This document shows, one piece after another, positions 1 to 51,137 of a stretch of DNA of 51,137 nt; the first letter of the stretch is position 1; every line of letters starts with the position of its first letter. A program made the translations under genes and the position numbers. Source of the stretch: a virus (lineage: Duplodnaviria; Caudoviricetes); IMG/VR virus record IMGVR_UViG_3300037962_000135, positions 1 through 51,137 of that record; one strand, written 5' to 3'. Under the pieces are notes generated by a model. The model did not search any database. It saw only the letters and a list, made by a program, of their open reading frames with translations, and was not told the origin of the DNA.

Positions 1-143
1 CTGCATGGGTTAGAAAGGTAGCGTATGAGGCATTACAACGTGAATTTACTAGCTCAGAATATAAAATTGCTGAAGCCAAAGACGAGTTGATGTGGAGAGA
101 ATCTGTACAAAGACGAATTGACGGAAGAAAGCAGAAAGACTAA
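1..143 (+). CDS. 3' end of small DNA-binding (RHH/CopG-like) protein, truncated by window start
   Basis: 4 mismatches in 143 nt against 37490..37632, all synonymous. Ends in TAA at 141-143. Confidence 0.8.
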   Translation, partial: AWVRKVAYEALQREFTSSEYKIAEAKDELMWRESVQRRIDGRKQKD

Positions 144-158
144 AACAACTTTTAAAAA

Positions 159-356
159 ATGAAAAGAATAACTTGGGTCGAGTGCCCAGGCTGTAAAATG
201 TACAGCGATCAGAAGGTTGTCCGTTCTGAAAGAAATTCAAAATTTATAACTATTCGTAGAAGAGAATGTTATGAATGTGGACATAGATGGGAAACGATCC
301 AATATCCTGAGATTATAGTTTCCAAGCAACAGGCAGCCTACGCTCGGTGTGAGTGA
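159..356 (+). CDS. NrdR N-terminal-like zinc-ribbon protein
   Basis: CPGC...RRRECYECGHRWETIQ motif. Paralog at 37983..38180 differs at 2 of 65 aa. Confidence 0.75.
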   Translation: MKRITWVECPGCKMYSDQKVVRSERNSKFITIRRRECYECGHRWETIQYPEIIVSKQQAAYARCE

Positions 357-670
357 CGCTTTGTTATATGTCTATACTTTAAGTGCATATAAAACTGCTC
401 CATCCACCATCTAAGTTTGTAAATTCCTGTACTCTTTTTTGTTTTGGTTTGCAGTACAGCTAATGTTGCTTCTAATTCTATTACTCTCATCATTGCTTTA
501 GATAGTACGGCTTCAGCCCTTGCATGGTTCTTCATCATGTCTATGCAAAAAGCTTTTATGGTTTTTATATCTTCACAAGCCCACACTTCTCTACATCGAA
601 GTTCTATCGCTAGTTCCACTTCGGGAGATAGCTCCGTGTGAATCATTTTCATAAACCCGTCATCTTTCAT
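338..670 (-). CDS. Hypothetical phage protein (helical/coiled coil)
   Basis: Homologous to 38162..38494 (shared KAFCIDMMKNHAR). Same 19-bp convergent overlap in both units. Confidence 0.75.
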   Translation of the reverse strand: MKDDGFMKMIHTELSPEVELAIELRCREVWACEDIKTIKAFCIDMMKNHARAEAVLSKAMMRVIELEATLAVLQTKTKKSTGIYKLRWWMEQFYMHLKYRHITKRHSHRA

Positions 671-671
671 G

Positions 672-848
672 TCATTGAAGAGAGGTAGTAGAACCTGGAA
701 ACATTCTGGCTTCTATAAAAGCAACTGCTTGATCGTCTATTGTATTGTCCGTTTGCTTGGCTATTGCCTTTAACAAATCCACTATCAATCTTTTCATTGC
801 CTTGGATTTAATAAAGACTAGAAGGATAGGTTTTAGAATTTTTACCAT
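672..848 (-). CDS. 58-aa conserved small protein (TDNTIDD motif), not in ORF track
   Basis: Hand translation MVKILKPILLVFIKSKAMKRLIVDLLKAIAKQTDNTIDDQAVAFIEARMFPGSTTSLQ. Same-length homolog at 38496..38672. Confidence 0.85.
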   Translation of the reverse strand: MVKILKPILLVFIKSKAMKRLIVDLLKAIAKQTDNTIDDQAVAFIEARMFPGSTTSLQ

Positions 849-913
849 CGTTTTTATGTGTTACTTCCCAAACATAGCTACTTTGCTAGTATTAGACAAG
901 AATCTTTACTTTT

Positions 914-1183
914 ATGGCTGAAGAGAAAGAAGAAAAAGAAGGTATTGAATGGGGTGAACTTTTTGGTCATGCGATCAGATTTCTGATTTTGACCTGGAGT
1001 TTATCAATGATGACTTTGGGATACATGGGTAAGGTAAGGATTGATGGAGCGTTTACGGCTGGACTCGTCAGTGGGGTGCTCGGAAGCTATGGAATTTCAG
1101 TAGGAAACAAGAAAAGTGGCACAAATAACAGTAATAGTCCTAAAATAGTAGATAATAGTAAAAACAAAGTAGGTATCAAATGA
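914..1183 (+). CDS. Two-TM membrane protein (holin-like topology, function unproven)
   Basis: Acidic N-terminus, two hydrophobic segments around IDGAF, basic C-terminus. Homolog 38756..39052. Confidence 0.7.
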   Translation: MAEEKEEKEGIEWGELFGHAIRFLILTWSLSMMTLGYMGKVRIDGAFTAGLVSGVLGSYGISVGNKKSGTNNSNSPKIVDNSKNKVGIK

Positions 1184-1665
1184 AAAGACTACTACCTTTT
1201 ATATTTCTTGTATCTGCACCAGCTTATGCGGACATGAATCATTCCATATCATCCAGTGTAAAGTTTGAATCACTTTCAGCAGCTAGTACAGCTGATAAGA
1301 TCGGTAGTTCATACAGTATCTCAGGTAATAATGTAACAACTGTGGACTCAAATTCAGCAGCTACAATAGGTGGGTTTGGTTCTGTTACAAATGGCGTACC
1401 AGCAGTAACTTTTCCTTCTGCTACGCAAGCGACTTCGGGAGAAGCCTTTAGTTTTACTACTAGCTATTTGGAAGGAGATGCCACCCCAGGTAGTGCAGTT
1501 ACAGTAGGAACTGTACCAAACTTCAGTGATTTAACCTCAACTTCTGCTGGAAGTGTAGGAACAGCAGCAGTAGCAATAGATAATCACACTATTACGATGA
1601 CACCTGGAACTGGAACGGGTATTGTAATGACAGGTCAGTTTGTCGTTGATCTCACTATCGAATGA
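1180..1665 (+). CDS. Exported Ser/Thr/Gly-rich protein with signal peptide
   Basis: MKRLLPFIFLVSAPAYA|D signal peptide; ATGA-coupled. Homolog 39049..39555. Confidence 0.85.
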   Translation: MKRLLPFIFLVSAPAYADMNHSISSSVKFESLSAASTADKIGSSYSISGNNVTTVDSNSAATIGGFGSVTNGVPAVTFPSATQATSGEAFSFTTSYLEGDATPGSAVTVGTVPNFSDLTSTSAGSVGTAAVAIDNHTITMTPGTGTGIVMTGQFVVDLTIE

Positions 1666-2087
1666 GGAGGCTACTTCTTCTTGGCTTTGTTATATCTGCT
1701 CCTTGTTACGCTGTGCCAGTTATACCTAATTTTACGCAGGGTAGTTCCACCAGCCGAACCGAAACTACCACAAATATTACAGAGACTATACGAACAACAG
1801 AATATAATTCTGGGTTTCTTTACTCAGTTACAGGATCGGGTATTCAGCATGACGGATCTTCTATTACTCCAGCAGCTACCTCAGTTAGTGAAACAATAAA
1901 CGGAACTACTCATACATGGCAGGGATTAAATCTAGACCAAAGACCAAACTGGACTCAAACAAATCAGGGAGATGCTTTTCAATTTACAGAAGTTTATCAA
2001 GCACCTGGAATGGAATCCGTAACAGACATTACACGCACGATCCAAAGCACAAGCGTCACAGATACCACAACTATCTTCTCGCAATAA
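1662..2087 (+). CDS. Exported Thr-rich protein with signal peptide
   Basis: MRRLLLLGFVISAPCYA|VPVIPNF. Homolog 39559..39999 shares PNFT, YxVTG, AFQFTE, IFSQ/VFSQ. Confidence 0.85.
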   Translation: MRRLLLLGFVISAPCYAVPVIPNFTQGSSTSRTETTTNITETIRTTEYNSGFLYSVTGSGIQHDGSSITPAATSVSETINGTTHTWQGLNLDQRPNWTQTNQGDAFQFTEVYQAPGMESVTDITRTIQSTSVTDTTTIFSQ

Positions 2088-2695
2088 GTCTGCTAGGTAA
2101 TCCTGTACTAGCTAATACAAGCAATACGGCTGCTCCAAGTGCATCGGCCTCTGGATCGGTTTCAAACTTTGCGACCCAAGTTTTAGGTGGACCAATGGTA
2201 GAAAATACATACGGAAATAATATCAAGTGTTCTGGGCCACAAATGACAGTAAGCCCATTTGTCACTACATCGTTCAACCAAAAAAGGCCACAGGACTACA
2301 TTTACCATACACCCGTGTACGATCCAACAGACGCAAATGATGATGGAGTGCCAGATAATCCAGGAAATGTACTTTATTATCAAGAAAACTACAGTGGTAA
2401 CAAGGATTCTTTAGGACTTAACTTTGGATTCGCACTTACATTTAATATTCCGCTAGATAAAAGATTTCAAGATTCTTGTCTTGACGCAGCTAATACACAA
2501 ATAAATTTACAGAAACAAGAATTAAATGCAAAGCTGCTCAACTATGAAATAGCCCGTTTAAAAAATTGTGGAGAATTATACTTAAAGGGAATTTCTTTCG
2601 ACCCTAAATCTAACTTTGCAAAATTATGCGAAGGGGTCGTTGTTCAACCGCCTCCAAATCAAGTTATACCTCACAGTCATAAATTAAAGCAGTAG
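1916..2695 (+). CDS. Exported/envelope protein with Cys pairs; start uncertain
   Basis: Internal signal-like segment (LLAISLLGNPVLA|N), DANDDGVPD motif, FGFALTFNIPLD strand, 4 conserved Cys. Homolog 39813..40595. Confidence 0.8.
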   Translation: MAGIKSRPKTKLDSNKSGRCFSIYRSLSSTWNGIRNRHYTHDPKHKRHRYHNYLLAISLLGNPVLANTSNTAAPSASASGSVSNFATQVLGGPMVENTYGNNIKCSGPQMTVSPFVTTSFNQKRPQDYIYHTPVYDPTDANDDGVPDNPGNVLYYQENYSGNKDSLGLNFGFALTFNIPLDKRFQDSCLDAANTQINLQKQELNAKLLNYEIARLKNCGELYLKGISFDPKSNFAKLCEGVVVQPPPNQVIPHSHKLKQ

Positions 2696-2721
2696 ACAAG
2701 CACGGGTTTTAACTTGTCTAC
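2692..2721. other. Conserved hairpin between convergent genes
   Basis: GTAGACAAG-cacgggttttaa-CTTGTCTAC. Covarying copy at 40592..40623. Confidence 0.6.
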
Positions 2722-2728
2722 CTAGACG

Positions 2729-2767
2729 CCCTATCCATTGCCTTGGCGAATAGGGTTCTTTTATTTT
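2729..2767 (+). terminator. Possible intrinsic terminator
   Basis: CCCTAT...ATAGGG stem followed by TTCTTTTATTTT. Absent in unit B. Confidence 0.4.
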
Positions 2768-3399
2768 AACTTATCTTTCTTCTTTGTCAGCTTTTTTATT
2801 AGGTTTTTTACTAAGGGTTTGACAATATTAAGCAGTAATGGAGTAGAGGCAGCAACAGTAGCAATAACAGCAGTGCTAACAAGCTGTGGAGGATTCGGTA
2901 TGTATTGCTCGATGAATTTAGTGCTTTCATACAAGGTTATACATTCACTACCATCTTCGCTTCTTTCATGTCCAATGACACGTTCCAGTTTAAATTCGTT
3001 ACGATAATCCCCTACTCTTTGATCTTTTTTGCCAGGACAGGCAACAAAAAGCGGATCATCTTTTTTCTTTTTTGGTTCGTATTTTGGAGGTTCTACCGTT
3101 GGTTGAACAAATTCTTGTTCCTGATTTTGGGGGGTTTCTGATTGTGTATATACAAATTCGTTGGGGTTATACTGCAAAGGTTCAAAACTAGGAATACTGA
3201 AGTTACCACATTCTGTATATGTGCCGTATTCATCTTTATCACTATCAATGAGACTTGTAAGATTATTTCTATGTACTCTTACACAACCAGGAATATCAAC
3301 TATAGGTTTACTTATGTTATTTAATGTTGGTACGTTAGGCTTCCATATCGGTATTTTATGAATCTCAATCCTGTTTACACTAATCTTTGGTATTTCCAT
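2761..3399 (-). CDS. Cys-containing protein with C-terminal membrane anchor
   Basis: PGCV..HR, CPG..DQRVGD, ECITLYE, hydrophobic tail followed by basic residues. Homolog 40630..41271. Confidence 0.85.
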   Translation of the reverse strand: MEIPKISVNRIEIHKIPIWKPNVPTLNNISKPIVDIPGCVRVHRNNLTSLIDSDKDEYGTYTECGNFSIPSFEPLQYNPNEFVYTQSETPQNQEQEFVQPTVEPPKYEPKKKKDDPLFVACPGKKDQRVGDYRNEFKLERVIGHERSEDGSECITLYESTKFIEQYIPNPPQLVSTAVIATVAASTPLLLNIVKPLVKNLIKKLTKKKDKLK

Positions 3400-3607
3400 C
3401 TTTTATATCTCCTATAGAAATAGACCAGCCATCTTCTCCAAACTTACCTTTTTCTACAATCTTAGGTTTTTTTACTTTTTTATCTAATTCTTCGTGATAT
3501 TTTTTTATGTCATTATCAAGTTCTAAATTGAATTTTTGCATACGCATCCAATGGATAAACTTATCTACATAGTATTTAACTAACTTTTTTATAAAACCAA
3601 ATATCAT
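3380..3607 (-). CDS. Hypothetical protein
   Basis: Nearly identical homolog 41258..41479; coupled to neighbours. Confidence 0.8.
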   Translation of the reverse strand: MIFGFIKKLVKYYVDKFIHWMRMQKFNLELDNDIKKYHEELDKKVKKPKIVEKGKFGEDGWSISIGDIKDGNTKD

Positions 3608-3759
3608 TTTGGTAAATAAACTTCTACATAAGAATTACATTTAGGACAAGATAAATTAGTTACCATTGAATATTCTTCTGAAAGAACAGGTTGAAAATCT
3701 TCATCAATACTATGATCTCCACCCCAGATTAATTCGGTTTTACAATGCCAGCAGTTCAA
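3604..3759 (-). CDS. 51-aa CxxC...CxxC zinc-ribbon protein, not in ORF track
   Basis: TTG start; NCWHCKTELIWGGD...NLSCPKCNSYVEVYLPK. Stop/start overlaps on both sides. Homolog 41479..41646. Confidence 0.85.
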   Translation of the reverse strand: MNCWHCKTELIWGGDHSIDEDFQPVLSEEYSMVTNLSCPKCNSYVEVYLPK

Positions 3760-3986
3760 ATTCCTAATCCTTTTGGTATTGGTAATGATTCTCCTGTAAC
3801 ATCAGGTAATTCTTTTTCCAGTATTTTTGGCATCATGCCTTGAACATTCCCAAGGATCTCATTCATTACTTGAGACTTAAAATTTTCAGATGTTACATAT
3901 TTGTATGCAAAGTACATTCCACCGCTCATAGAGGCTACCATTACAAATGAGACAATACTTAAAATGTTTGCGATTTTTTGAAACAT
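3756..3986 (-). CDS. Small protein with N-terminal TM segment
   Basis: MFQKIANILSIVSFVMVASMSGG is identical in homolog 41643..41864. Start taken at the conserved Met. Confidence 0.85.
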   Translation of the reverse strand: MFQKIANILSIVSFVMVASMSGGMYFAYKYVTSENFKSQVMNEILGNVQGMMPKILEKELPDVTGESLPIPKGLGI

Positions 3987-4137
3987 GGTCAAAGAAGTTC
4001 TTAATAAAATGGTAGCACCACTTACTCTGATGGTGCTGTTGCTTCTTGTGGGGTTGATGCCTCTGTATCTGATGGCTGGTTTGCTTCGGGTTCAGCTTCA
4101 AGAATCTGTTGTTCGAGAATCTTCATTGCACCGCTGA
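3985..4137 (+). CDS. 50-aa antisense single-TM peptide, not in ORF track
   Basis: MVKEVLNKMVAPLTLMVLLLLVGLMPLYLMAGLLRVQLQE... aligns without gaps to 41863..41994. Confidence 0.7.
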   Translation: MVKEVLNKMVAPLTLMVLLLLVGLMPLYLMAGLLRVQLQESVVRESSLHR

Positions 4138-4207
4138 CTTCATATAAAGCAATTTGTAAATTTTGCCTTTCAATAGCAAGTTGTTGTAGTTTTTCTTTAA
4201 GATTCAT
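4022..4207 (-). CDS. Small coiled-coil protein downstream of tail fibre
   Basis: ORF in the fibre operon with heptad-like N-terminal half. The acidic tail overlaps the antisense peptide. Confidence 0.65.
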   Translation of the reverse strand: MNLKEKLQQLAIERQNLQIALYEVSGAMKILEQQILEAEPEANQPSDTEASTPQEATAPSE

Positions 4208-4210
4208 AGT

Positions 4211-4459
4211 TTAATAGAGTTTTTTACCAGCAACAATAGCAGCATCTATGGCTGTAAAATCTTCTGATGTCCAGATAGATGTCGTTCCATCTAGCTTTTT
4301 GTAAGCTTTAATAATTTCGAGATGCTCTACATTTCTCTGAATTTTTTCTTTAAATTCAGCTTCAGTTTCATCGCCTGTTTTTGCTGTGTCAATAACAGTA
4401 ACGCTATCACCAGCACCAGAATAAATTACTGCAATTTCTTCTGCGGTTTTTTCTTCCAT
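4211..4459 (-). CDS. Tail-fibre-associated hypothetical protein
   Basis: Directly follows the fibre gene; IQRNVEHLEI...WTSEDFT motif. Confidence 0.7.
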   Translation of the reverse strand: MEEKTAEEIAVIYSGAGDSVTVIDTAKTGDETEAEFKEKIQRNVEHLEIIKAYKKLDGTTSIWTSEDFTAIDAAIVAGKKLY

Positions 4460-4485
4460 AATTAAAAAATTGGATTACTTTTAGT

Positions 4486-7400
4486 TTACCCTGCTTCGAG
4501 GGCTTTGACTTTTACGGATAACTCTTTTACAGCATTAACTAAATACCACATTAAATTATCAGAATTTACAGTCTTAATACCATACGATGATGTTTCTACA
4601 CATTCAGGTAATACTTCTTCAAGTTCTTGTGCAATTACACCAATTTGTTGACCAGATTTATCTACTGCTACGTTTTTAGCTACTTTTTCTAATTCTGGAT
4701 TATTTTCAATAATCTCTTCTAAAGTTTTATATTCAAAATTCCGTATTTGGATTTTTTCAAGTAAATTTATTCCAGAATTATTATTAACAATATTTTTCTT
4801 TATTCTTCTATCAGAAGTAGTTGACCAACTAGAGCTATTATCACTTTGGAATGAACCCGAAGATGCTCGGACTTTAAAAGTATCACTACCAGCACCAGCA
4901 ATGTTATATCCTAAAACTATTGACCTGTCAGAATTTCCAACCCTTGAATAATTACCAATAGAAATATTTTGCCCACCTGTTGTAGTATGGGAAGAATATG
5001 CAGCAGCGTTGTAACCTATAAAAACATTATCAGTACCAGTTGTAACGTAATAACCAGCAGCGTTTCCAAGAAAAGTTTGTGAATGTCCCGTAGTCAGGTT
5101 GTATCCAGCTTCACGACCAACACAGGTATTTAAATTAGCAGTTGTTTGATTGTACGCTGCTCTTATTCCAACAAAAACATTATTATCACCTGTAGTTAAG
5201 TTATAACCAGCAGCATAACCTATTGCTGTGTTCTGACCACCATCAGTTGATAATGCTAAAGCATAAGAACCTACTGCTGTACAATCATTATTTACATTAT
5301 TTCTTAATGCAAAATAACCAACGGCTGTGTTGTCATTGTCGGTGGTATTAGCCATTAATGCAGCAACTCCTACCGCAGTATTTCTAATTCCTGTTGTGTT
5401 GTCATAAAGGCCATTATGACCTACGGCAGTATTGTAATTTCCAGTTGTGTTGTCGTGTAATGTATGACAACCTATTCCAGTATTCTCAATTCCTGTTGTA
5501 TTGCTCGTGAGTGCTTTATAACCAAAAGCATTTATTTTCGTTCCTGTCGTGTTTGCGTCTGCGGTATAAGCTCCCATAGCCGTATTCTCACTCGCAGTTG
5601 TATTAGAAGTAAGGCATTTATACCCAACAGCAGTATTGTTACTAGCACTTGTATTGGAACCTAAAGCACCTGATCCAATCCCAACATTATTACTTCCTGT
5701 GTTAACTCTTAAAGCTGGTTGTGCTGAACCATCAAAAGCACCTACAGCAGTATTTCCTGTTGCTGTAGTTACGTCACCTAAAGCAAACCTACCAATCGCA
5801 ACATTTCCAACGCCTGTAGTTAAATCATCTAGTGCATGTGATCCAACCGCAATACAGTTATGAGCTCCAGTTGCAGTATCCATTGCGTTATAGCCTATTG
5901 CAACGTTTTCAACAGCAGTTGTACTGCTAGTTAACGCATTTACACCGATAGCCACATTGTAATTACCTGTAGTGTTAGCATCCAAAGCAGCAGTACCTAC
6001 AGCAGTATTCGATGATCCAGTTGTGTTTTGATCTAAAGCATGATAACCCACAGCAGTATTATTATCTGCTGTAGTATTTGCAGATAAAGCTCCCTTACCA
6101 ATTCCAGTGTTTTGAGCACCAGTTGTATTTAATACAAGAGCAGCAAGACCTACAGCAGTATTGTCACTAGCGGTAGTATTTGCAGCTAAAGCGGTTTCTC
6201 CTAAAGCGGTGTTTTGCGAACCAGTTGTGTTTGCTCCTAAAGCACTTCTACCAACCCCAGTATTGTTATTTCCAGTAGTGTTAGCATCTAATGCGTTAGC
6301 ACCTACAGCAACATTTTGAGTTCCAGTTGTGTTTGCATCTAAAGCGTAATATCCAACTGCTGTGTTGTTAGATGCTGTTGTGTTATTAGTTAATGCAGAC
6401 CTACCACAAGCAGTATTATTTGCACCTGTCGTGTTTAATACTAAAGAATTATATCCAATAGAAGTATTTGCATTTGCGGTTGTATTATTAAATAATGCTC
6501 TCCTGCCTATTCCAGTATTTTCTGTTCCAGTTGTATTTGAAGTTAAAGATTGATAACCTATTGCGGTGTTAGCGGCTGCCGTAGTATTTGCATCTAACGC
6601 ATTTGCACCTAAGGCTGTGTTTTCTGTTCCAGTTGTGTTTACTCTTAACGCATTAACACCGACAGCAACATTATTATTGGCTGTAGTGTTATCTCCCAAA
6701 GCACCACTACCTACAGCAGTATTATCTGAACCAGTTGTGTTATCCGTAAGAGCGAATTGACCAATTGCAGTATTAGCACCTGCTGTAGTATTAGCATCTA
6801 AAGCAACATATCCTACCGCAACATTCCCTGCTCCAGTTGTGTTTAACAATAAAGCTTGATAACCAACTGAAGTGTTATTATCTGCCGTAGTGTTTTCTCT
6901 TAAAGCACCAGAACCAACAGCAACATTAAAATCTCCAGTTGTATTGTATCTCATTGCCTGAAGACCTAATCCAGTATTATTAGCACCTGTCGTATTACTA
7001 TTTAAACTCCTTACACCTAATGCAGTATTATTATCACCAGTTGTATTTACGTCTAGACATAAACTACCTACAGCAGTATTTGAACCTCCAGTTGTGGTTA
7101 ATTTAAGAGCATCATGTCCAACGGCAGTATTATTTGAACCAGAAGTTAAAGTTGTTAATGCTGAATTTCCAATCGCTGTGTTATCTGCACCAGTAACAGC
7201 AGCATCTAAAGCACTTTCTCCAAGAACAGTGTTACCAGCAACAGAGTTTGCACCTTTACCGACAGTTAAAGAATTTATTGTCGCATCAGCAGTTGTTGTA
7301 ACCCCTCCAGTCAATGTTCTTAAATCAATCCAGCCGTCATTTGCTGAATTACGCATTTTTAATAAATTATTACTTGTATCAGCCCACAACATATATGCAG

Positions 7401-7521: not shown

Positions 7522-7563
7522 TACCTAATCCAATTTTTTATCTAAGTATATCTTAATTCAACT

Positions 7564-43245: not shown

Positions 43246-43614
43246 TTAACTAGGTTCAGTTGGGAAAGTGACAGATGACATATCTAAATGACCATCTGCC
43301 CCTATTTTAGGCGATGCACTTGCTGGTAAATCTCTAAGTGCTTGCCTATAAGTTTTCCAATCATCTGACATTGTAGGGGAATCTGAAAAACTCATCCAAT
43401 CTGTTTTTGCTAATCTTGCATTTCTTTCTACTCTTAAAAGTCTCATAGGTTCTGCATTTGTTAATCTTAATAGCTCTGCTTCTATTTCAGCATCAGTTGG
43501 GATGGTTTCGCCTTCATCCCATACAAAACCAGAATAATCATCATCTTCTGCACGATAACTCCATTGTTTATTAGGTTTTAAACTTGCAAGTGCATCTACT
43601 TTTTTATAAAACAT
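43246..43614 (-). CDS. Tail fibre assembly chaperone-like protein
   Basis: LRVERNARLAKTDW...WKTYRQALRDLP. Confidence 0.8.
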   Translation of the reverse strand: MFYKKVDALASLKPNKQWSYRAEDDDYSGFVWDEGETIPTDAEIEAELLRLTNAEPMRLLRVERNARLAKTDWMSFSDSPTMSDDWKTYRQALRDLPASASPKIGADGHLDMSSVTFPTEPS

Positions 43615-44270
43615 TATGTATCTCCCAAGCGAATAAATGTAACACCATTTCTGAGTGCATTAGAATCTCCTGAGTATTGAACATTAGCAGTATTGTAGGC
43701 TCTTAATGCAAATCTATATGTGCTTGCATTTTGTACATCAACTATTGCCTGTAAGTGCATATGATGATAACCATTATTCGTATTAGTAATCTGACCATAT
43801 GAAACAGTAGAATAGTTGCTACCACTATCTGAACTCATTCGCATTTGAACACCACAATAGCTTGCAGAAGTATTCATTGTATGTTGGCTCATAATAAAAT
43901 ATATACCAGTTTGTGGAAAAGTAAATATGCCACTTGACTCTGTCATGCCAGTTCCTATCTGTGCAAAAAAGAAATCACTTCTTTCCCAGTTGCTATCTAT
44001 TACTTGACCATTGGTTTTATTATTATCATTTGTTATATTCCATTGATCTGCCATTGTAATTCCAGCAGATATTCCAGTTAAAGCTGAACCATTTAAAGCT
44101 GGTAAATTACCAGAAAGTTTTGTTGCATCAAGCGTACTTTGACTTGTGACAAGCTCCCCATCTGCAATATCGGGCAAGCTAATTACTCTGTTGTTACTAG
44201 AAGAAGAGGGTGCTTGGATACTTATAGACCCACCCCCGGAAGCTGCGTTTAGTTTAATCTTTGCTGTCAT
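43614..44270 (-). CDS. Short tail fibre/spike-like protein (C1q-like C-terminus)
   Basis: KIKLNAASGGGSISIQAP start; SGIFTFPQTGIY. Confidence 0.7.
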   Translation of the reverse strand: MTAKIKLNAASGGGSISIQAPSSSSNNRVISLPDIADGELVTSQSTLDATKLSGNLPALNGSALTGISAGITMADQWNITNDNNKTNGQVIDSNWERSDFFFAQIGTGMTESSGIFTFPQTGIYFIMSQHTMNTSASYCGVQMRMSSDSGSNYSTVSYGQITNTNNGYHHMHLQAIVDVQNASTYRFALRAYNTANVQYSGDSNALRNGVTFIRLGDT

Positions 44271-44554
44271 GGTTTAGGATACTTGTCTTTGATAGCTTTG
44301 ATAGTAGTTTTCCAGCCAGCTACACCACTATGATAAATGGTATCAAGCTGATCTTCAATACTTGGATATTCTGCTGCTCTATTTCTTGAATATTCAAGGG
44401 CTGCATATTCACTATTTAATGTGGTTCGTGCAGCGTCAATATCAGACTGGACAAGTGTTATTTGTGTGCCATCTGCTCTAAATGCTCCTGTAGAATCATC
44501 AATTTTTGTACAGTCTGGATACGCTTTATAAATAGCTTCATGGTCTAAAATCAT
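44267..44554 (-). CDS. Tail fibre chaperone-like protein
   Basis: YSRNRAAEYPSIEDQLD...IKDKYPKP. Confidence 0.7.
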   Translation of the reverse strand: MILDHEAIYKAYPDCTKIDDSTGAFRADGTQITLVQSDIDAARTTLNSEYAALEYSRNRAAEYPSIEDQLDTIYHSGVAGWKTTIKAIKDKYPKP

Positions 44555-45225
44555 GGTTCTATCTCCGTTAATGTAAGACTTGAATAACCTCTTACATAAT
44601 AAACAGTTGCACTATTTGTATGATCTCTATTTAGGTAGATAGTTTTATTTGTACTAGAATCATGGCTGAATCTATAACTGTAAGTTATTGGACTTGTGCC
44701 TCCTGCTGTATCTAGATATTCATGTGTAATCGTAGAAACTCGGCCAGAACTAGTTACATAAGTAGCAGCAGAAACTTGTTGCCTTACACTTGAATCCCCT
44801 CTTGCTGCATCAAGAACTGAGCCAGCTTTAAATAATTGTGCAAAAACTTGTTTATCATCACTTATACCTACCATCAAACTAGCTCTGATTAATATTAAAT
44901 TACTAGCATTAGATGGTGTGATAGCTTTAGAAATAAGATCGCCTGTTAAACCCGAAGAGTTATCATTCGTACCTGCACCTACAGTTTCACTAGCAGTATT
45001 TTTTTTAGACTCTTGAACAACTTGTAAAACTTTTCCACCAGAAGCAATACCAGTAATACCGCTATTTGTAATCGCCATTCTTTCAACACCACCAGTTGAA
45101 AACTTGATAGTGTCAGCAGCAGGGAATGTTATGCCAGTATTACTATCCGTTCCAGTTAAGGCAGGAGCAGATACGCTTCCATCAACCCCAGAAATACCAG
45201 TAGTGCCGTTAATGTTTAATGCCAT
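44551..45225 (-). CDS. Short tail fibre/spike-like protein
   Basis: TGISGVDGS, GKVLQVVQ, ITPSNASNLILI, C-terminal SSLTLTEI. Confidence 0.7.
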   Translation of the reverse strand: MALNINGTTGISGVDGSVSAPALTGTDSNTGITFPAADTIKFSTGGVERMAITNSGITGIASGGKVLQVVQESKKNTASETVGAGTNDNSSGLTGDLISKAITPSNASNLILIRASLMVGISDDKQVFAQLFKAGSVLDAARGDSSVRQQVSAATYVTSSGRVSTITHEYLDTAGGTSPITYSYRFSHDSSTNKTIYLNRDHTNSATVYYVRGYSSLTLTEIEP

Positions 45226-45227
45226 AA

Positions 45228-45845
45228 TTAAAGAATAACAAGGATTGCACCAGATGGCACTGTAACAGTAACACCTGAATTTATTGTAGGGCTTACTGTG
45301 TGTGCATTTTTATTGGCAGTTAAAGTGTAATTCGTTGTAACAGCTTGGTCACTCTCGAAAAACACCTGATCTGTGCCACCTCCAGTAGCTCCAGCACCTC
45401 CACCAAGTTCTCCCCAACCTGTATTTTTATACCCTTCAAACCTGTTTTGATCTGAGTTATATCTAAATTGTCCTACTGCTGCTGTTGGTGCTCCAGACTG
45501 TCCAGGTTGCTGTGCATCAGTACCAACAGGAACTTTTAAAAATCCAGTAGATGACATCGTAACATCACCTGTCATCGTAGGGCTTGCTGCTACAACATGA
45601 CCTAAATTATCTAAACTAATATTTCCTATGGTTACGTATGCGTTATTTGCTGCGTTTCTTATCTTGAATAATGAACTTCCTGTATCAATGTGTGGCTGAA
45701 AAGCTGAGTTTATTGATGGATCGCCAGAACCGCTATTTAAAGAGTTGATAGCAGCAGTAATTTGATTTAATTTTGTTCGGACAGCAGCACCCGTTCCATT
45801 ATCAATGACATACCCTGCCCCACCTGTGTTATCAACTCTAGCCAT
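45228..45845 (-). CDS. Tail fibre anchor/adaptor protein (unit B)
   Basis: N-terminus YVIDNGTGAAVRT aligns with unit A fibre YVIDNSTGANVRT; FRYNSDQNRFEGY; VTVTVPSGAILVIL end. Confidence 0.75.
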   Translation of the reverse strand: MARVDNTGGAGYVIDNGTGAAVRTKLNQITAAINSLNSGSGDPSINSAFQPHIDTGSSLFKIRNAANNAYVTIGNISLDNLGHVVAASPTMTGDVTMSSTGFLKVPVGTDAQQPGQSGAPTAAVGQFRYNSDQNRFEGYKNTGWGELGGGAGATGGGTDQVFFESDQAVTTNYTLTANKNAHTVSPTINSGVTVTVPSGAILVIL

Positions 45846-45873
45846 TTAGAAAAGTAACATTGCTCCTATTATA

Positions 45874-48800
45874 CTATCCTTTTCCAAAACCAACAGCAGC
45901 AAATACAAATTGCTTACTTATAGAAGCATTTGATGAATTTTTAAAATGTATCTGAAAATTACTTGCAGTTATATTTGATATTTCAAAGAAATCACCAGAA
46001 GCTAAGTTCTGAGCAGTGACATTAACTGTTGGTAAATGTTGATTAAGGGTTCCAAGTGCAGACGTTCCAACAAAAAATGGAGAGCTAAATGGAACTGTGG
46101 TTACTCCTGCTGATGAAGTGATAGTTTGACCAGTTCCCTGATCTATTCTTTTTTCTAATTTTGCTGAATAACCTAACTGAAATACTCTAATATCCTGTGC
46201 TGGATCATTACTGGTAAGAACTGTTCTAAATTGAAAACCTCTTGCCTTGAATGTACCGCTTGTAAAGTTTTGAAAATCACTGTATGTAGGCGAACCAGAA
46301 GGATCATCTTGTGTGGTGCGTACAAACAGTTGAGCATCTACATCATTAGCATCTGTTCCATCAAAGTCTGTCCAAGTATCTACATTTGCAATTCTTGAAT
46401 CAATTAAATCTGCTGGATAAAAACCTTCTGTTTTGAAATGCCTAACTAAATCAAGACTAAATACTGCACCTAAATCTAAAGTAGATGCAAAATCATAAGT
46501 ACCTAATGGAGATATTCCTCCAACATCATCTAGTGATCCAACAGCATCAAGATCAGCAATATTATCAAATTGTCCTGCACCAGTTAAGTTAAGAGAATTT
46601 GTTGTTGCATCAAAAGCTGTATTAACCTTTGCACCCTGAAACTTGGGATTATCTAAATCTTCTCTTCTGGTTTGAACAAGTAACTCATCAGTTACTTCTG
46701 GGATATTTACAACAACACTGGCCTCTCCTGCACTAAATCTACCACCATCATCTTGAAATTTAAGAATATACTCTCCAGTGATAGCAGGAACTATTGCTTC
46801 AGTTGAGTTTCCTGGAGCAGCTTCTATTAAATCAACAGCTTTCTCAAACGTACCAGTGCCATCAGTTCCAGAACTATCGTGTCTAATGTAAACTAAACCA
46901 CCATGAGTAACATCAATATCTGTTGATCTGTTCCATTTCAAGCGAATCAATTTACTATTTATCGGTTCAGCAGTAAGCCCCGTCATGTCTGCTGGAATAG
47001 CAGTTTTTCCTGCAAAATCTTTTGTTAATGTAGCTGGCTCTGCTGATGCTTCTAATGCTGCATTTAAACTAAACACCCTAAACTCATAATTCCCTTCACT
47101 TGCATCAAATATTGTGAAATCTGTTCCCATAACAGTGGTGCTAACGAAGTTTCCGTTATCCTTTCTGTACTGAATCCTGTATTGGCTAACACCTCGAACA
47201 GCTTCATAATCAAGAATAATTTTTACTTTTGCTTTTTGATTTTCAACATAGAACTGTTGAGTAGCACTCAGACCAGTAGGAGCATCTTTTAGTTCATTTA
47301 ATATCGTTACATTTCTAACAGGAAGGGGAGTTCCATCTTCAATAAATGCAAACTTTCCTGAATTATAAGCCGTTCCAACGATGGCATAATTATCCTTATC
47401 TTCAGTTACGCTGACAACTCTCCATTGAGTAGTTTCTAGTGTGGTGTTACTTAAAATCCATACACTATTTGCATTTGGAGCCGATGAAAAAGCGGAAGAT
47501 ACTGTAATAACAGCACCAGAAATGTCACTTACAGGCTTAGTTTCTACCGATCCATCGGATAAGATAACGCTAAGCGTTGGATTGTTTGTAGCGTCTAAGT
47601 CTGTATCTTCTGTATTATCTACTGTGACAGTTGTTGTTGTTGCTGACTTTATTCTTCCTCCTCTTCTTAGTCCTGCCCTTACTGGATCACTTACTTCGAT
47701 AACTTGCCCAGGTCTTACAACAACTCCTTCTGATAAACCAGTAGTAAAATTAATTGTTTCAGTAGAATTTTGTTCTTCAAATAATAAAAATCTGCCTAAT
47801 CTTCTTGCCTGACCTCTTGAACTACAACCAAAGCCAGTAATTTTTTTATGTAATACACCATATTTATTTTTTGCTGCTACATCTTCTACAGTTTCAAAGT
47901 CTAATTCTTGATTTTCCATATCAAAATATGACACAGAAACTACAGTTGCCCTTGTTTTAAGACTTGTACCAGAATATCCAAATCCTGCTGATGTTACATT
48001 TGATAAATTGAACAGATAGCTAGGATCTGTAGGTCTATCTTGTGAAATTGTAAGAGAACCAGCAGTCCAGTAGCTTATTGATCTCATTACAGAAGTAAGG
48101 GAATTTACAACTTCATACGCATCCGATCTTGCTTGCAAAATAGTATTGCAGCTAAATCTAGGTTCTTGTCCTCCTGCTCCGTCATCTACCAACTCTGAAC
48201 AATAAACAGAAGCACTATAAAAAGCATATTTATCAAGTTGAGCTTCTGTAATATGATCTCCTAGTCCATATCTAGTATTTGTTAACAAGTCAAATAGAAT
48301 CCAAGCTGGATCAGAACACCAAACTTTAGTTGTAGTAAGCGTTCCATTAAATGTTCCTGTGTAAGTTATTCTTCCTGTTGCAGCTTCTACAGTTCCGTTT
48401 TGAGGTATTTTTATTTTTACTCCACGAACTTTATACATTCTTCTTGGAACAGATGAAAACTGTTCCGAGTCAAACCTTAATGCTGCATGAGCAATATCAG
48501 GATAAGGTCTTTGCTCATCAATAATTTCAGTAAAAGATTGAAAGAAAAATTCATTTCTTAGTCTTGCTGGATCTTCAGCATCCGCAGTTACTCTAGTTAC
48601 TTGAACTGTTATAGGAAAGTTCAGTCCAGAGGGGAGATCAATTCTATAATCTCTGTTATACGCTGAAGAACTTCTTCCTGTAACTGTGTCAGATATTGGA
48701 GTGCTTGTCGTTCCATTATTTTGAATAATTTTTATAGTTAAATCTACTGATGTACCATTAATATCTCCATTGCTTTCAAACTTTTGTAATCCATTAAAAC

Positions 48801-49227
48801 GAATAGTAACTCTAATAGCATTGATATCGGAGTTTGTTATCTGTCTTGATATTGGAGTTCCATTTTCTACCTTTGATCCGACATTAGTTTCAGATTCAAT
48901 ATTGGCAATACCAGAGATAAATGTTTGATTTGACGTACCAAATCTAGGTTCAAACTCTACATCCCTAAAGTTGAAATCGGTAGCTTGAGTGTTTGTTGGA
49001 TCGGCACTAGCTCTTAAAACTGGAGTTTTTCCTAGAAATACATCTTTTAATGCTGCTGTATTGTAGTTAGCTGTGCCTTTTGTAAATGCTGCTGCTGATG
49101 GAAAGCCTTCTATTTCACCTTCACTAAGAACATCAACAATAGTCGCAAATTGTTTACTCGATAAGGCATTAGAAGGTAGCGAGGAATCAACTACTACATC
49201 ATCTTCAGAGCGATTAACAATTCCCAT
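45874..49227 (-). CDS. Tail tip protein, gpJ-like (unit B)
   Basis: Homolog of 7564..11226. Confidence 0.92.
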   Translation of the reverse strand: MGIVNRSEDDVVVDSSLPSNALSSKQFATIVDVLSEGEIEGFPSAAAFTKGTANYNTAALKDVFLGKTPVLRASADPTNTQATDFNFRDVEFEPRFGTSNQTFISGIANIESETNVGSKVENGTPISRQITNSDINAIRVTIRFNGLQKFESNGDINGTSVDLTIKIIQNNGTTSTPISDTVTGRSSSAYNRDYRIDLPSGLNFPITVQVTRVTADAEDPARLRNEFFFQSFTEIIDEQRPYPDIAHAALRFDSEQFSSVPRRMYKVRGVKIKIPQNGTVEAATGRITYTGTFNGTLTTTKVWCSDPAWILFDLLTNTRYGLGDHITEAQLDKYAFYSASVYCSELVDDGAGGQEPRFSCNTILQARSDAYEVVNSLTSVMRSISYWTAGSLTISQDRPTDPSYLFNLSNVTSAGFGYSGTSLKTRATVVSVSYFDMENQELDFETVEDVAAKNKYGVLHKKITGFGCSSRGQARRLGRFLLFEEQNSTETINFTTGLSEGVVVRPGQVIEVSDPVRAGLRRGGRIKSATTTTVTVDNTEDTDLDATNNPTLSVILSDGSVETKPVSDISGAVITVSSAFSSAPNANSVWILSNTTLETTQWRVVSVTEDKDNYAIVGTAYNSGKFAFIEDGTPLPVRNVTILNELKDAPTGLSATQQFYVENQKAKVKIILDYEAVRGVSQYRIQYRKDNGNFVSTTVMGTDFTIFDASEGNYEFRVFSLNAALEASAEPATLTKDFAGKTAIPADMTGLTAEPINSKLIRLKWNRSTDIDVTHGGLVYIRHDSSGTDGTGTFEKAVDLIEAAPGNSTEAIVPAITGEYILKFQDDGGRFSAGEASVVVNIPEVTDELLVQTRREDLDNPKFQGAKVNTAFDATTNSLNLTGAGQFDNIADLDAVGSLDDVGGISPLGTYDFASTLDLGAVFSLDLVRHFKTEGFYPADLIDSRIANVDTWTDFDGTDANDVDAQLFVRTTQDDPSGSPTYSDFQNFTSGTFKARGFQFRTVLTSNDPAQDIRVFQLGYSAKLEKRIDQGTGQTITSSAGVTTVPFSSPFFVGTSALGTLNQHLPTVNVTAQNLASGDFFEISNITASNFQIHFKNSSNASISKQFVFAAVGFGKG

Positions 49228-49845
49228 TTACGCTGTACCTTTTATCTGTACTGTATCAATTCCTGCTGATACTACTAGAGAACCAGCAAAAATTTCTCCA
49301 TAAATCACAGGTATTGCTGTTCCTGCTCTTGATGTATTCTGCACTCCACTAAATGAAAAGTTCTGCGATTGTGGATCTTCTGAAACCCCTGGAGGTTGTG
49401 GAACAGGAGTAAGCATCTGTGCTGCTCCTGATAATGCTAAATAAATACCAAAGTTTCCTGCTGCTGCTGCTAAAGCACTAGGAACTGCTCCTGTACCTAT
49501 AAATCCAATACCGCCACTTCCAAGAGCAAAACCTGCACCTCCAGAGGCTATGGCAACTCCGATTAGTGCAACTCCAGCTAATACTCTTCCTAATCTTCTA
49601 GCACCAGCAGCTACAGGTACTATTTTTATTTCCTGTTCGCCCATTGGGTCAAATAATTGTGTCTCATCAATATCATTTTTTCCCACTTTTACACAATAAT
49701 TTTGTTCCTTCATGTGTCGTTCCAAATTGGGGAAATTTGCCAGTAAAAATTTAAAAGTATCAATAGGTGTTTTAACCTCTGCTTCAAATGTACGCTCTCC
49801 AAGGAATTTAGCTAACCTTCCGTAAACTTTAATTTTACTGAGCAT
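49228..49845 (-). CDS. gpI-like tail assembly protein (unit B)
   Basis: Homolog of 11223..11843. Confidence 0.9.
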   Translation of the reverse strand: MLSKIKVYGRLAKFLGERTFEAEVKTPIDTFKFLLANFPNLERHMKEQNYCVKVGKNDIDETQLFDPMGEQEIKIVPVAAGARRLGRVLAGVALIGVAIASGGAGFALGSGGIGFIGTGAVPSALAAAAGNFGIYLALSGAAQMLTPVPQPPGVSEDPQSQNFSFSGVQNTSRAGTAIPVIYGEIFAGSLVVSAGIDTVQIKGTA

Positions 49846-50539
49846 AGCGATACCTCTTCTTTGTCCATTCTATATACTTTTGGTCATAAGTTTCCCTGCA
49901 ACTAAGTCTTTTCACACAATGATGAAGAATAGTTTGATCTCCAATATAGACAGCAGCATGATCTAAAGTTCCCTGTCCTGAGTCCATAATAAAAACATCC
50001 CCAATTTCTGTTTCAACATTATCATCTATTTCTGTGAAGCCCAATTTAGGTAGAGCATATTCAAATAAGGGTGATTCACTAAATTCTTGAGGGCTTTTAG
50101 GCCGTTTCCAATGTTTTATTTCTATATTTTTCTTTTCTTTATACCAATCAGTAATTAAACTCCAACAATCTTGTATATCCCATACCCATTGTCTGCCTAT
50201 TAACCCTTTTTGATAACCAGATGGTTCAAAATAATGCCATTCTTTTGTTTCTGGGGTGACAATATAAAAAGGTAAATCTAAATACTCACAACTTGCGAGA
50301 TCAGCTTGACTAGGAAATGGTGGTATTTGTGGATGGCTATGAAAAACAGCGATAACTTCGCCAGCATCTTCAGCTTTTATCCAATCATCGGGATCAATAA
50401 TAAATTGTTCACCTAAATCTTCTGCAAGATTTTTACAGGGAAAATACTTTTCTTTACCTTTATAGACAGTTAATAAACCACACGCTTCATGTGGTGCATC
50501 TTTTTCTGCGTGTTTAAGTGCAATATCCTGCCAAGTCAT
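49835..50539 (-). CDS. gpK-like JAB + NlpC/P60 protein (unit B)
   Basis: FHSHP...SQAD, DCWSLITDWY, DHAAVY. Confidence 0.92.
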   Translation of the reverse strand: MTWQDIALKHAEKDAPHEACGLLTVYKGKEKYFPCKNLAEDLGEQFIIDPDDWIKAEDAGEVIAVFHSHPQIPPFPSQADLASCEYLDLPFYIVTPETKEWHYFEPSGYQKGLIGRQWVWDIQDCWSLITDWYKEKKNIEIKHWKRPKSPQEFSESPLFEYALPKLGFTEIDDNVETEIGDVFIMDSGQGTLDHAAVYIGDQTILHHCVKRLSCRETYDQKYIEWTKKRYRYAQ

Positions 50540-51137
50540 CCAACAAACGTACCAATGCCAGGGAAAATATCTCTAGTGGCAATCCTCTTTGGTAATTTTA
50601 CGTTTACCAAGTCTAATGCTGATACTGCTTCCCATTGAACAATATCTCTATTTTCGCTCACTTTTCTGTCTAAAAAATAAATCTCTTGAGGAAATTCTGC
50701 CGTTGGATCGGGAGTACCAAATGGATTAGATTGCGTGGTGGAGGATGAAGTTGTTGTTTGCTGGATAGTATTTGGGTTATTCATTGTGATTGTATTACCC
50801 ATATTATTTCCATGAGTTTGGCAATAATATCGAAGATCATTTGGAGCAGAAGGATAAGCTGGAGAATAAGTTACAGTTGCATCTGTGCCTAAAGTTCCTG
50901 CATTTACAGTAGTTTGCTGCCCACCAGCATCAGATTTTATTCTCAAAGGATGGTTTACATTAGAGCTATGAGATTGATTAAAAATATAAGTTGAACCACG
51001 TTTCATTGTTATAACTGGCTTTTGAACCCCATTTATTGCAAAAACATTTGCACCACCAGAATCTTGAACTACTGTGACAGTATATGTGACAGTTTCCCCG
51101 TCAGCAGGATCGGCTACAGTCTGAGTTGATGTACTTG
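50536..51137 (-). CDS. gpL-like hub protein (unit B), 5' truncated, with inserted domain
   Basis: Frame is open to the window end. NPFGTPDPTAEFPQEIY matches unit A NPYGTPDATAEFPQEIY. Confidence 0.85.
   Translation of the reverse strand, partial: STSTQTVADPADGETVTYTVTVVQDSGGANVFAINGVQKPVITMKRGSTYIFNQSHSSNVNHPLRIKSDAGGQQTTVNAGTLGTDATVTYSPAYPSAPNDLRYYCQTHGNNMGNTITMNNPNTIQQTTTSSSTTQSNPFGTPDPTAEFPQEIYFLDRKVSENRDIVQWEAVSALDLVNVKLPKRIATRDIFPGIGTFVG

What the first reader, a model, noticed from the sequence alone, without database searches (positions are those of the whole stretch)
1..51137. Two related but different phage genomes joined head to tail
Seen: position 1 recurs at 37490. The first 143 nt differ at only 4 synonymous sites, then the 13.6 kb of unit B keeps the gene order but diverges strongly and swaps the fibre module. 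This is neither an exact terminal repeat nor a simple concatemer. Inference, four options: (a) an assembly chimera that walked through the near-identical RHH/NrdR-like segment from one strain to another; (b) a real heterodimeric recombinant from co-infection; (c) a tandem array in a host; (d) one larger genome carrying two full tail-tip and fibre sets. Option (a) is the most mundane and must be excluded first.
Basis: partly seen in the sequence, partly recalled or inferred. Interest (0 to 1): 0.8.

Follow-up and report, generated by a model that had tools for sequence, protein, structure and literature searches.

The report
Assembly chimera of two phage lineages
This 51-kb marine phage record is most likely one complete 37.5-kb genome onto which the assembler added 13.6 kb from a different, co-occurring relative after going once round the circle, so the apparent double set of tail genes is probably not real.

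Summary
Position 1 recurs at 37490: 154 nt at 96.8% identity, with four third-codon-position differences and identical protein. The next 13.6 kb repeats the gene order of 1-13.1 kb at about 50% amino-acid identity, with a different fibre set.

The window is a whole IMG/VR record, classed linear and 100% complete. It has one terminase, portal, capsid, tape measure and polA, but two L-K-I-J tail tips. Both contig ends cut genes.

All 10 long relatives examined (27-43 kb, including a Prochlorococcus single-cell contig) carry one J gene. The five that are at least 90% complete measure 35.7-43.4 kb.

Independent contigs link polA to the B module and polA to the A module. They also show B-type tail tips continuing into their own M, tape measure and tail genes. 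Two relatives end in imperfect wrap-around overlaps.

Public runs show several backbone variants above a single-depth B path.

Verdict: a wrap-around assembly chimera in a microdiverse population, about 85% likely. No raw or long reads were available, so this is not proven.

The parts
1..37489 (.). Unit A: one full turn of a roughly 37.5-kb phage genome. It holds a single copy of the terminase, portal, capsid, tape measure, primase-helicase and polA genes.
   Evidence: Position 37490 aligns to position 1. Gene content comes from PHROGs. The unit length lies inside the 35.7-43.4 kb range of relatives that are at least 90% complete and is close to cultured P-HS2 and MED4-117 at 38.3-38.8 kb.
37490..51137 (.). 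Unit B: a second pass of 13.6 kb that is collinear with 1-13.1 kb but comes from a different lineage. It breaks off inside the L-like gene.
   Evidence: about 50% aa identity. The last ORF, 50536-51135, is open at the contig end. B-type contigs from elsewhere continue into their own M, TMP and tail genes.
37387..37632 (+). Its last 47 codons are what recurs at window 1-143, so the A copy is cut by the contig start.
   Evidence: No Pfam or PHROG family was found.
1..356 (+). Near-identical segment, A copy: the tail of the small ORF (1-143) plus the NrdR-like zinc-ribbon gene (159-356).
   Evidence: 96.8% identity over 1-154 and about 96% over 155-356 to copy B. Exact runs reach 62 nt. PF22811 scores 30.5 bits.
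37644..37977 (+). A 334-nt insertion present only in copy B. It carries most of a 74-aa ORF (37607-37831). It is variable among relatives.
   Evidence: Alignment. L413 holds only part of it. Contigs lacking it were seen in runs X1 and X5 (table 5).
37983..38180 (+). NrdR-like zinc-ribbon gene, B copy.
   Evidence: 96.9% aa identity to the product of 159-356. It hits the same PHROGs as the A copy.
914..4459 (.). Accessory module of unit A: DUF6450, phrog_564, DUF6322/phrog_650, phrog_848, phrog_570, phrog_568 and small ORFs.
   Evidence: A few single hydrophobic segments were found, but nothing more.
38756..42179 (.). Accessory module of unit B. It holds the same families in the same order at 32-84% aa identity.
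4486..7521 (-). Fibre of unit A: a single 1011-aa gene with internal repeats.
   Evidence: PHROGs 6002, 23837 and 4636. Self-BLAST shows internal repeats at 5840-7134. Best relatives in IMG/VR are only 44-87% identical.
42183..45845 (-). Fibre set of unit B: six genes, including fibre and fibre-assembly families.
   Evidence: PHROGs 4492, 4912, 9114, 6942 and 29834. Only the first ~60 residues resemble the A fibre, at 45%.
7564..11226 (-). J-like central tail fibre, unit A (1220 aa).
   Evidence: phrog_31, E 1e-178.
45874..49227 (-). J-like central tail fibre, unit B (1117 aa).
   Evidence: phrog_31, E 9.5e-201. 49.5% identical to the A copy.
11223..13672 (-). I-, K-, L- and M-like tail-tip genes of unit A.
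   Evidence: PHROGs 32, 30, 18 and 14. PF05939 for M.
49228..51135 (-). I-, K- and truncated L-like genes of unit B. The L-like gene carries an extra domain.
   Evidence: PHROGs 32, 30, 18 and 677. K and I are 100% aa identical to those of the independent contig G011.
13672..25246 (-). Single-copy tape measure, tail, connector, capsid, scaffold, portal and large terminase genes.
   Evidence: One terminase match in the record.
30483..36767 (.). Single-copy replication genes: PD-(D/E)XK exonuclease, SSB-like, primase-helicase and family-A DNA polymerase.

Best explanation
The record is an assembly artefact. The sample held a swarm of related Prochlorococcus-type siphoviruses of about 36-43 kb. 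Their genomes behave as circles in an assembly graph.

The assembler followed lineage A once round (1 to 37489). It then re-entered the conserved segment that holds the small-ORF tail and the NrdR-like gene. That segment is 96-97% identical between lineages, with exact runs up to 62 nt. From there the assembler left along the path of a second lineage, B, and followed B's private 13.6 kb until the next tangle, inside B's L-like gene.

What is shown: the wrap, the divergence, the single-copy backbone, the independent existence of both kinds of junction, stand-alone B-type genomes, and several co-occurring backbone variants.

What is inferred: the assembler's path, and where exactly the A-to-B switch lies. 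The switch could be in the conserved segment or further back in the backbone. If both lineages share backbone sequence, the contig could also be a legal walk A-branch, shared backbone, B-branch. In every version, no single DNA molecule has this structure.
For: 1. The window is a whole record whose ends cut genes. The repeat starts exactly where a circle of 37,489 bp would close.

2. The duplicated part is not a tail-gene cassette. It is everything that follows polA in circular order: regulator, accessory genes, fibres, J, I, K, L.

3. All 10 long relatives examined (27-43 kb; 9 IMG/VR records and one Prochlorococcus single-cell contig) hold one J frame. The 5 that are at least 90% complete measure 35,689-43,430 bp. 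Cultured P-HS2/MED4-184 and MED4-117 (38.3-38.8 kb) hold one J place each.

4. Both junctions occur separately in other assemblies. L157 matches 34051-39532 at 97% in one piece (polA to B). L168/L257 joins polA (93-95%) to A 1-768 at 95-96% without the insertion. L413 joins the polA side to A-type sequence at 94%.

5. B-type tail tips belong to genomes of their own. G011 has K and I 100% aa identical to unit B. It continues into its own M (52% aa to the window's), tape measure (46%) and tail genes (30-35%), and meets window-like head genes only at about 18.2 kb. L002, L008, L035, L036 and L255 behave likewise. L034 runs from B's L gene to polA without any A module.

6. The same kind of slip occurs in relatives. 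G001's ends overlap over 571 nt at 91.6%, and G003's over 400 nt at 94.5%; that is 2 of 7 long IMG/VR relatives checked. The single-cell contig runs straight through G001's end-to-start junction with one copy.

7. In run X1 the B-specific pieces are exact and sit at one depth (20.5-26.4). The summed contig depth of the backbone is higher: median 59.7 in the 9 bins 31138-37140, against 25.7 in the 13 bins 42477-51137. Hundreds of variant letters were reported. Several variants therefore share the backbone.

8. Genomes repeated within IMG/VR contigs are on record as probable assembly artefacts (PMC8116208, passages read).
Against: No raw or long reads were available, so linkage on single molecules was not tested. 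All four runs laid were contigs.

In run X1 three depths are nearly equal: the contig with the A-type joint (21.6), the B pieces (20.5-26.4) and one backbone unitig at 33096-33961 (22.5). In the bin 33139-33805 that unitig is the only cover at 90% likeness or more. Equal depth is what one molecule would give. It is also what lets an assembler confuse two lineages, and contig depths are crude.

The contig start at position 1 is not explained by a simple k-mer overlap rule, because the first A/B difference is at position 17.

No contig of exactly the A strain or of an exactly closed A circle was found. The best A-type junction contigs are 94-96% identical, and a 50-nt A-junction word had 0 matches in metagenome contigs.

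I could not place the switch point.
Confidence: 0.85

Rival explanations
1. A real hetero-concatemer or recombinant. In cells co-infected by lineages A and B, replication concatemers recombined in the conserved segment. The DNA that was sequenced contained A and B genomes joined head to tail.
For: Both lineages are present together in at least one run. In X1 the A-type joint has depth 21.6 and the B pieces 20.5-26.4, and one backbone unitig has the same depth, 22.5. The family is strongly mosaic, so recombination at these module borders does happen in nature.
Against: Such molecules would be rare intermediates compared with the parental genomes. They would exceed the 36-43 kb genome size of the family. 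Short-read assembly cannot show them. The backbone carries several variants at higher summed depth than B. None of the 10 long relatives shows a second J.
Confidence: 0.07
2. One larger genome (over 51 kb) that really carries two tail-tip and fibre sets, for example for two hosts.
For: The record as deposited has two intact J, I and K genes and two fibre sets, all with open frames. CheckV rates it 100% complete.
Against: The duplicate also includes the regulator and the whole accessory module, in circular order. The second L gene and the first small ORF are cut by the contig ends. There is only one tape measure and one M, although B-type tips elsewhere come with their own. All 10 long relatives, and both cultured relatives (counting P-HS2 and MED4-184, whose records are identical in length and match coordinates, as one), have one J. 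The unit length of 37.5 kb already equals a full genome of this family.
Confidence: 0.03
3. Two related prophages integrated in tandem in a host chromosome.
For: None was found beyond the head-to-tail order itself.
Against: There is no host DNA at either end, no integrase or repressor family among 77 ORFs scanned, and no tRNA. The genome carries its own polA and primase-helicase. The relative in a Prochlorococcus single-cell assembly is a separate 41-kb all-phage contig; the 15 ORFs scanned in its first 10 kb gave only phage-family hits, including replication and recombination genes, and no host gene.
Confidence: 0.01

Closest known systems
Contigs with a repeated viral genome in IMG/VR, described with CheckV (PMC8116208; passages read)
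   Same: The contig is longer than the genome because the assembler went round a circular or concatemeric template more than once. The CheckV authors regard such contigs as probable assembly artefacts.
   Different: In those cases the copies are the same genome, and a k-mer frequency above 1 reveals them. Here the second pass is partial (0.36 of a unit) and follows another lineage at about 50% aa identity. Only 5 exact words of 25 nt or more are shared, and no end repeat exists. The record therefore passes as 'linear, 100% complete'.
Direct-terminal-repeat contigs of circular or permuted phage genomes
   Same: The sequence returns to its starting point after one genome length (37,489 bp).
   Different: A DTR is an identical stretch at the two ends of the contig. 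Here the return is internal, 96.8% identical for 154 nt, and is followed by 13.5 kb of diverged sequence.
Prochlorococcus siphoviruses P-HS2/MED4-184 and MED4-117, and marine Synechococcus siphoviruses KBS-S-2A, S-H1 and S-2L
   Same: These are the nearest cultured phages. J is 46-47% aa identical over 86-87% of its length. The capsid is 28-35% identical. Genomes are 38-45 kb with one J. A Prochlorococcus single-cell assembly holds a 41-kb contig of the window's family with a capsid 92% aa identical.
   Different: They are distant relatives, and the replication modules were not compared. The window's family is known here only from uncultured contigs.
Modular mosaicism of lambda-like siphoviruses (exchange of tail and host-range modules)
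   Same: The M-L-K-I-J tail tip is present. Within the family, tail modules are reshuffled against a conserved head and replication backbone.
   Different: Mosaicism explains why lineages A and B differ. It does not place both modules on one molecule.

Membership tests
Inter-lineage chimeric (wrap-around) contig | Sequence returns to its own start after one genome length | tested here: met
   37490 aligns to position 1. The 37,489-bp unit lies within the family's range of 35.7-43.4 kb.
Inter-lineage chimeric (wrap-around) contig | Each part exists elsewhere joined to other partners, without the duplicate | tested here: met
   polA to B in L157. polA to A in L168/L257 and L413. The B tip joined to its own M, TMP and tail genes in G011, L255, L002 and others. 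All 10 long relatives hold one J.
Inter-lineage chimeric (wrap-around) contig | A shared near-identical stretch at the switch, long enough to merge graph paths | tested here: met
   About 350 nt at 96-97% identity with exact runs of 62, 56, 52 and 50 nt. The assembler and its k are unknown.
Inter-lineage chimeric (wrap-around) contig | No single molecule or read pair supports the full A-backbone-B order | not testable with these tools
   Only Logan contigs were available for the four runs laid. Raw and long reads were not available.
Concatemer contig (same genome repeated; CheckV k-mer test) | Copies share their k-mers (k-mer frequency clearly above 1) | tested here: not met
   Only 5 exact matches of 25 nt or more between 1-13700 and 37301-51137.
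Exact direct terminal repeat (complete circular or permuted genome call) | Identical sequence of 20 bp or more at both contig ends | tested here: not met
   IMG/VR classes the record as linear. Self-BLAST shows no similarity between the two ends.
Long-terminal-repeat phage genome (T5- or SPO1-like) | Long terminal repeats that are identical copies | tested here: not met
   The copies are 65-78% nt identical outside a 350-nt island. That such repeats must be identical is recalled knowledge, not a call result.
Tandem prophages | Integrase, attachment sites and host flanks | tested here: not met
   No integrase family among 77 ORFs, no tRNA, and phage genes run to both ends. att sites were not searched for specifically.
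Lambda-like siphovirus tail tip (M, L, K, I, J) | Ordered genes matching the M, L, K, I and J families | tested here: met
   PHROGs 14, 18, 30, 32 and 31 in unit A. PHROGs 18 (partial), 30, 32 and 31 in unit B, where M lies beyond the contig end.

The most novel reading that the evidence does not exclude
The join is real. A heterodimeric replication concatemer formed by recombination in the conserved small-ORF/NrdR-like segment between two co-infecting Prochlorococcus-type siphoviruses that differ in their whole tail module. It would have been abundant enough in the sample to be assembled, giving a direct snapshot of tail-module exchange in the act. The near-equal contig depths of the A-type joint, the B path and one backbone unitig in run X1 do not exclude this.
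Probability: 0.06. Interest if true: 0.6.

Novelty: not a real feature. Interest (0 to 1): 0.12.

Why it matters
The main value is for database hygiene. The record is filed as a linear, 100% complete, 51-kb virus, but it most likely fuses two lineages.

Because the second pass is diverged, the usual checks do not flag it. There is no end repeat, and the copies share almost no k-mers (compare the CheckV passages).

Left as it is, the record inflates genome size, falsely suggests a phage with two host-recognition sets, and can bridge two virus clusters in clustering or host-range work. Two relatives (G001, G003) show a milder form of the same slip, so the problem may be common in microdiverse marine phage groups.

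There is a biological by-product. The contig places two alternative tail modules of one abundant Prochlorococcus-type siphovirus family side by side. It also marks a conserved border, the small-ORF/NrdR-like segment, next to which modules differ.

Tried and rejected
1. Bubble hypothesis. I asked whether unit B rejoins unit A's sequence at the contig end. It does not: the last 600 nt of the window are not A-like, and B-type contigs continue into different M and TMP genes.

2. Same-strain contigs closing the A circle.
- A 50-nt word across the A junction had 0 matches in metagenome contigs.
- A 34-nt A-specific word gave one contig, L413, only 94% alike and not held for a whole-record search.
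- The 42-nt start word gave two IMG/VR contigs at 78-96% identity.
- The A fibre has no close relative in IMG/VR; the best are 44-87% identical.

3. Locating the A-to-B switch by nearest relatives of the backbone was inconclusive. The polA closest to the window's (99-100% aa) is mostly linked to B-type modules (L157-L167), but an A-linked polA (L168) is 97% aa identical.

4. Read evidence. All runs were Logan contigs, so starts, pairs and true depth are not available. The A-type joint (37642 to 37978) is listed for X1 and X5 but not for X2 and X8, which hold exact B pieces. Since contigs show presence and not absence, I draw nothing from that. That joint may also simply be the window's own A copy laid on B coordinates.

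5. Identity with the vSAG 37-F6 pelagiphage group. I considered this only from a search listing and did not test it against that genome. Capsid and J searches point to cyanobacterial siphoviruses instead, so I dropped the idea.

6. Host DNA in the Prochlorococcus single-cell contig. Its first 9.4 kb has low GC, but the 15 ORFs scanned in its first 10 kb gave only phage-family hits (O-like initiator, RusA, Erf) and no host gene.

7. Earlier findings of this scan: nothing on record.


Full report
WHAT THE RECORD IS

The window is a whole single-contig virus record of 51,137 bp. It is 37% GC, has no N, and is classed by IMG/VR as linear and by CheckV as 100% complete.

PHROG and Pfam scans of 77 and 33 ORFs give an ordinary lambda-like siphovirus:
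- On the minus strand: large terminase (23990-25246), portal, scaffold, major capsid (18804-19895), connector and tail genes, an 853-aa tape measure (13672-16233), then M, L, K, I, J (13672 down to 7564) and a 1011-aa fibre (4486-7521).
- On the plus strand: exonuclease, SSB-like, primase-helicase and family-A polymerase (to 36767), small ORFs, a zinc-ribbon NrdR-like gene, and an accessory module.

No integrase family and no tRNA were found.

CHECKING THE OBSERVATION

Self-BLAST and alignment confirm that position 1 recurs at 37490.
- The first 154 nt are 96.8% identical. The four differences inside the ORF all lie at third codon positions, and the protein is unchanged.
- Copy B then has a 334-nt insertion (37644-37977).
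- After the insertion, near-identity resumes through the NrdR-like gene. 155-356 matches 37978-38180, and the protein is 96.9% identical.
- From there the copies stay collinear but far apart:

| Gene or region | aa identity A vs B |
|---|---|
| J | 49.5% |
| I | 50.0% |
| K | 48.3% |
| L C-terminus | 57% |
| Accessory genes | 32-84% |

- The fibres are different: one large gene in A against six smaller genes in B.
- Only five exact matches of 25 nt or more link the copies, the longest being 62 nt.
- Both contig ends lie inside genes. Position 1 is 103 nt into the small ORF whose full copy is 37387-37632, and the last ORF (50536-51135, L-like) runs off the end.
- The two ends do not resemble each other, and the end of B does not converge on A's sequence near 13.1 kb.

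WHAT THE RELATIVES SHOW

The family is very abundant and very diverse in marine data. Nearly all contigs are short.

I examined ten long relatives (27-43 kb): nine IMG/VR records and one 41-kb contig from a Prochlorococcus single-cell assembly. All ten have a single J frame. The five that CheckV rates at least 90% complete measure 35,689-43,430 bp.

The nearest cultured phages are Prochlorococcus siphoviruses P-HS2/MED4-184 and MED4-117, at 38.3-38.8 kb. Their J is 46-47% identical and occurs at one place per record. Synechococcus siphoviruses are nearest by capsid, at 35%.

A unit of 37,489 bp is therefore already a full genome of this family. Nothing in the family carries two tail tips.

BOTH JUNCTIONS EXIST SEPARATELY

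Among the 80 polA loci:
- L157 (5.5 kb) matches the window 34051-39532 at 97% in one piece. That is polA straight into the B insertion and B accessory genes.
- L168/L257 joins a polA 93-95% identical to the window's directly to A 1-768 at 95-96%, without the insertion.
- A 30-kb metagenome contig (L413) joins the polA side to A-type sequence at 94%, with only part of the insertion.

On the other side, B-type tail tips continue past the window's end into their own genes.
- G011 has K and I 100% aa identical to unit B. It goes on into an M 52% identical to the window's, a tape measure 46% identical and tail genes 30-35% identical. It meets window-like sequence again only at the head genes (capsid 97.6% aa, 90% nt).
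- L002, L008, L035, L036, L041 and L255 show the same pattern.
- L034 (19.9 kb) runs from B's L gene through the fibres and accessory genes to polA and beyond, with no A module.

Together these contigs tile a normal stand-alone B-type genome. A-type contigs keep high identity up to 13.9 kb, through M.

THE SAME SLIP IN RELATIVES

Two of the seven long IMG/VR relatives that I checked for self-similarity end in imperfect overlaps. G001's overlap is 571 nt at 91.6%, and G003's is 400 nt at 94.5%. The single-cell contig runs straight through G001's end-to-start junction with one copy of that stretch.

True terminal repeats are identical copies; this is recalled knowledge, not a call result. Overlaps at 92-95% therefore mean the assembler came round the circle and continued on a neighbouring variant. 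The window shows the same event carried on for 13.6 kb into a much more distant lineage.

PUBLIC RUNS

Twenty runs from nine studies hold part of 33001-43000. Four were laid on 31138-51137, and all were Logan contigs.
- B-specific pieces are exact in X1, X2 and X8, so unit B is a real and widespread sequence.
- In X1 these pieces sit at one depth (20.5-26.4).
- The summed depth in the backbone is higher. The median is 59.7 in the nine bins 31138-37140, against 25.7 in the thirteen bins 42477-51137. About a thousand variant letters were reported. Several variants therefore share the backbone.
- A contig lacking the 334-nt insertion is present in X1 (depth 21.6) and X5.

Evidence against my reading:
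- That depth, the B depth and the depth of one backbone unitig (33096-33961, 22.5) are nearly equal. One molecule would give exactly this.
- Contig depths are crude, and equal abundance is also what makes an assembler confuse two lineages.
- The joint contig may simply be the window's own A copy.
- No raw or long reads could be laid, so linkage remains untested.

MECHANISM

The most likely course is as follows. The assembly graph of this swarm has circles that touch wherever sequence is conserved. After one full turn on lineage A, the walk re-entered the 350-nt segment that is 96-97% identical, with exact runs of 50-62 nt. It left on lineage B's branch and stopped at the next tangle in the L/M region.

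The switch could instead lie further back in the backbone, since polA of B-linked contigs is as close to the window's polA as that of A-linked ones. I could not place it.

The CheckV paper reports IMG/VR contigs with the same genome repeated and regards them as probable assembly artefacts, found by k-mer frequency (PMC8116208, passages read). The present case would escape that test and the end-repeat test because the second pass is diverged.

RIVAL EXPLANATIONS

- A real hetero-concatemer from co-infection is not excluded (about 7%).
- One larger genome with two tail-tip sets is unlikely (about 3%). The duplicate includes regulators and accessory genes in circular order. It is cut at the contig end. 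It lacks the M, tape measure and tail genes that accompany B-type tips elsewhere.
- Tandem prophages have no support (about 1%).

VERDICT

Interest is low. The practical value is a warning about this record and about diverged wrap-around contigs in microdiverse phage groups. As a by-product, the record gives a side-by-side view of two alternative tail modules of an abundant Prochlorococcus-type siphovirus family.

Noticed in passing
window 13106-18184 versus L414 (G011) 1630-7144: In this family the whole tail module, not only the fibres, is exchanged as a block against a conserved head. This covers the tail genes, tape measure, M, L, K, I, J and fibres. G011 shares a capsid 97.6% aa identical with the window, but its tail genes are only 30-52% identical. 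Other contigs with about 90% nt identical heads carry a J only 44% identical (G001, G006).
   Followed up: partly
L247-L249 (G001) ends; L250-L251 (G003) ends: Two IMG/VR relatives rated 100% complete and 'linear' end in imperfect overlaps: 571 nt at 91.6% and 400 nt at 94.5%. Their true unit lengths would be about 42,859 and 39,239 bp.
   Followed up: partly
window 1662-2087 / 1916-2695 and 39559-39999 / 39813-40595: Two conserved genes (DUF6322/phrog_650 and phrog_848) overlap by about 170-190 nt in different frames, in both units. Profile matches cover nearly the whole of each protein. This could be a true long overlap, a later real start, or a frameshift product.
   Followed up: no
window 50536-51135 and 13106-13672: The L-like gene of unit B carries an extra domain of about 115 aa (phrog_677, 30742 and 708, baseplate or fibre connector type) that unit A's L lacks. 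In unit A a similar small beta-barrel-type stretch sits at the C-terminus of M (PF12195, below the cut-off).
   Followed up: no
window 5840-7134: The fibre gene of unit A holds many internal repeats. Self-BLAST shows hits at offsets of about 102 nt and multiples, and 13 stretches match phrog_6002. It has no close relative among about 590 related stretches in IMG/VR (44-87% aa).
   Followed up: no
window 15469-15619: A 78-nt tandem repeat (1.9 copies, 86% matches) lies inside the tape-measure gene. The tape measure is hypervariable among relatives.
   Followed up: no
L420 1-9400 (Prochlorococcus single-cell contig, G013 contig 13): A relative with a capsid 92% aa identical has no detectable match to the window's replication region (polA, primase-helicase). 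In its place is a low-GC (23-31%) block with an O-like initiator, RusA and Erf. Replication modules therefore appear to be swapped in this family as well. The contig sits in an assembly labelled Prochlorococcus, which points to the host.
   Followed up: partly
window 37644-37977: A small indel cassette with a 74-aa ORF lies between the small ORF and the NrdR-like gene. Among relatives it is present, partial, replaced or absent (L157, L413, L034, and contigs of runs X1, X5 and X8).
   Followed up: partly
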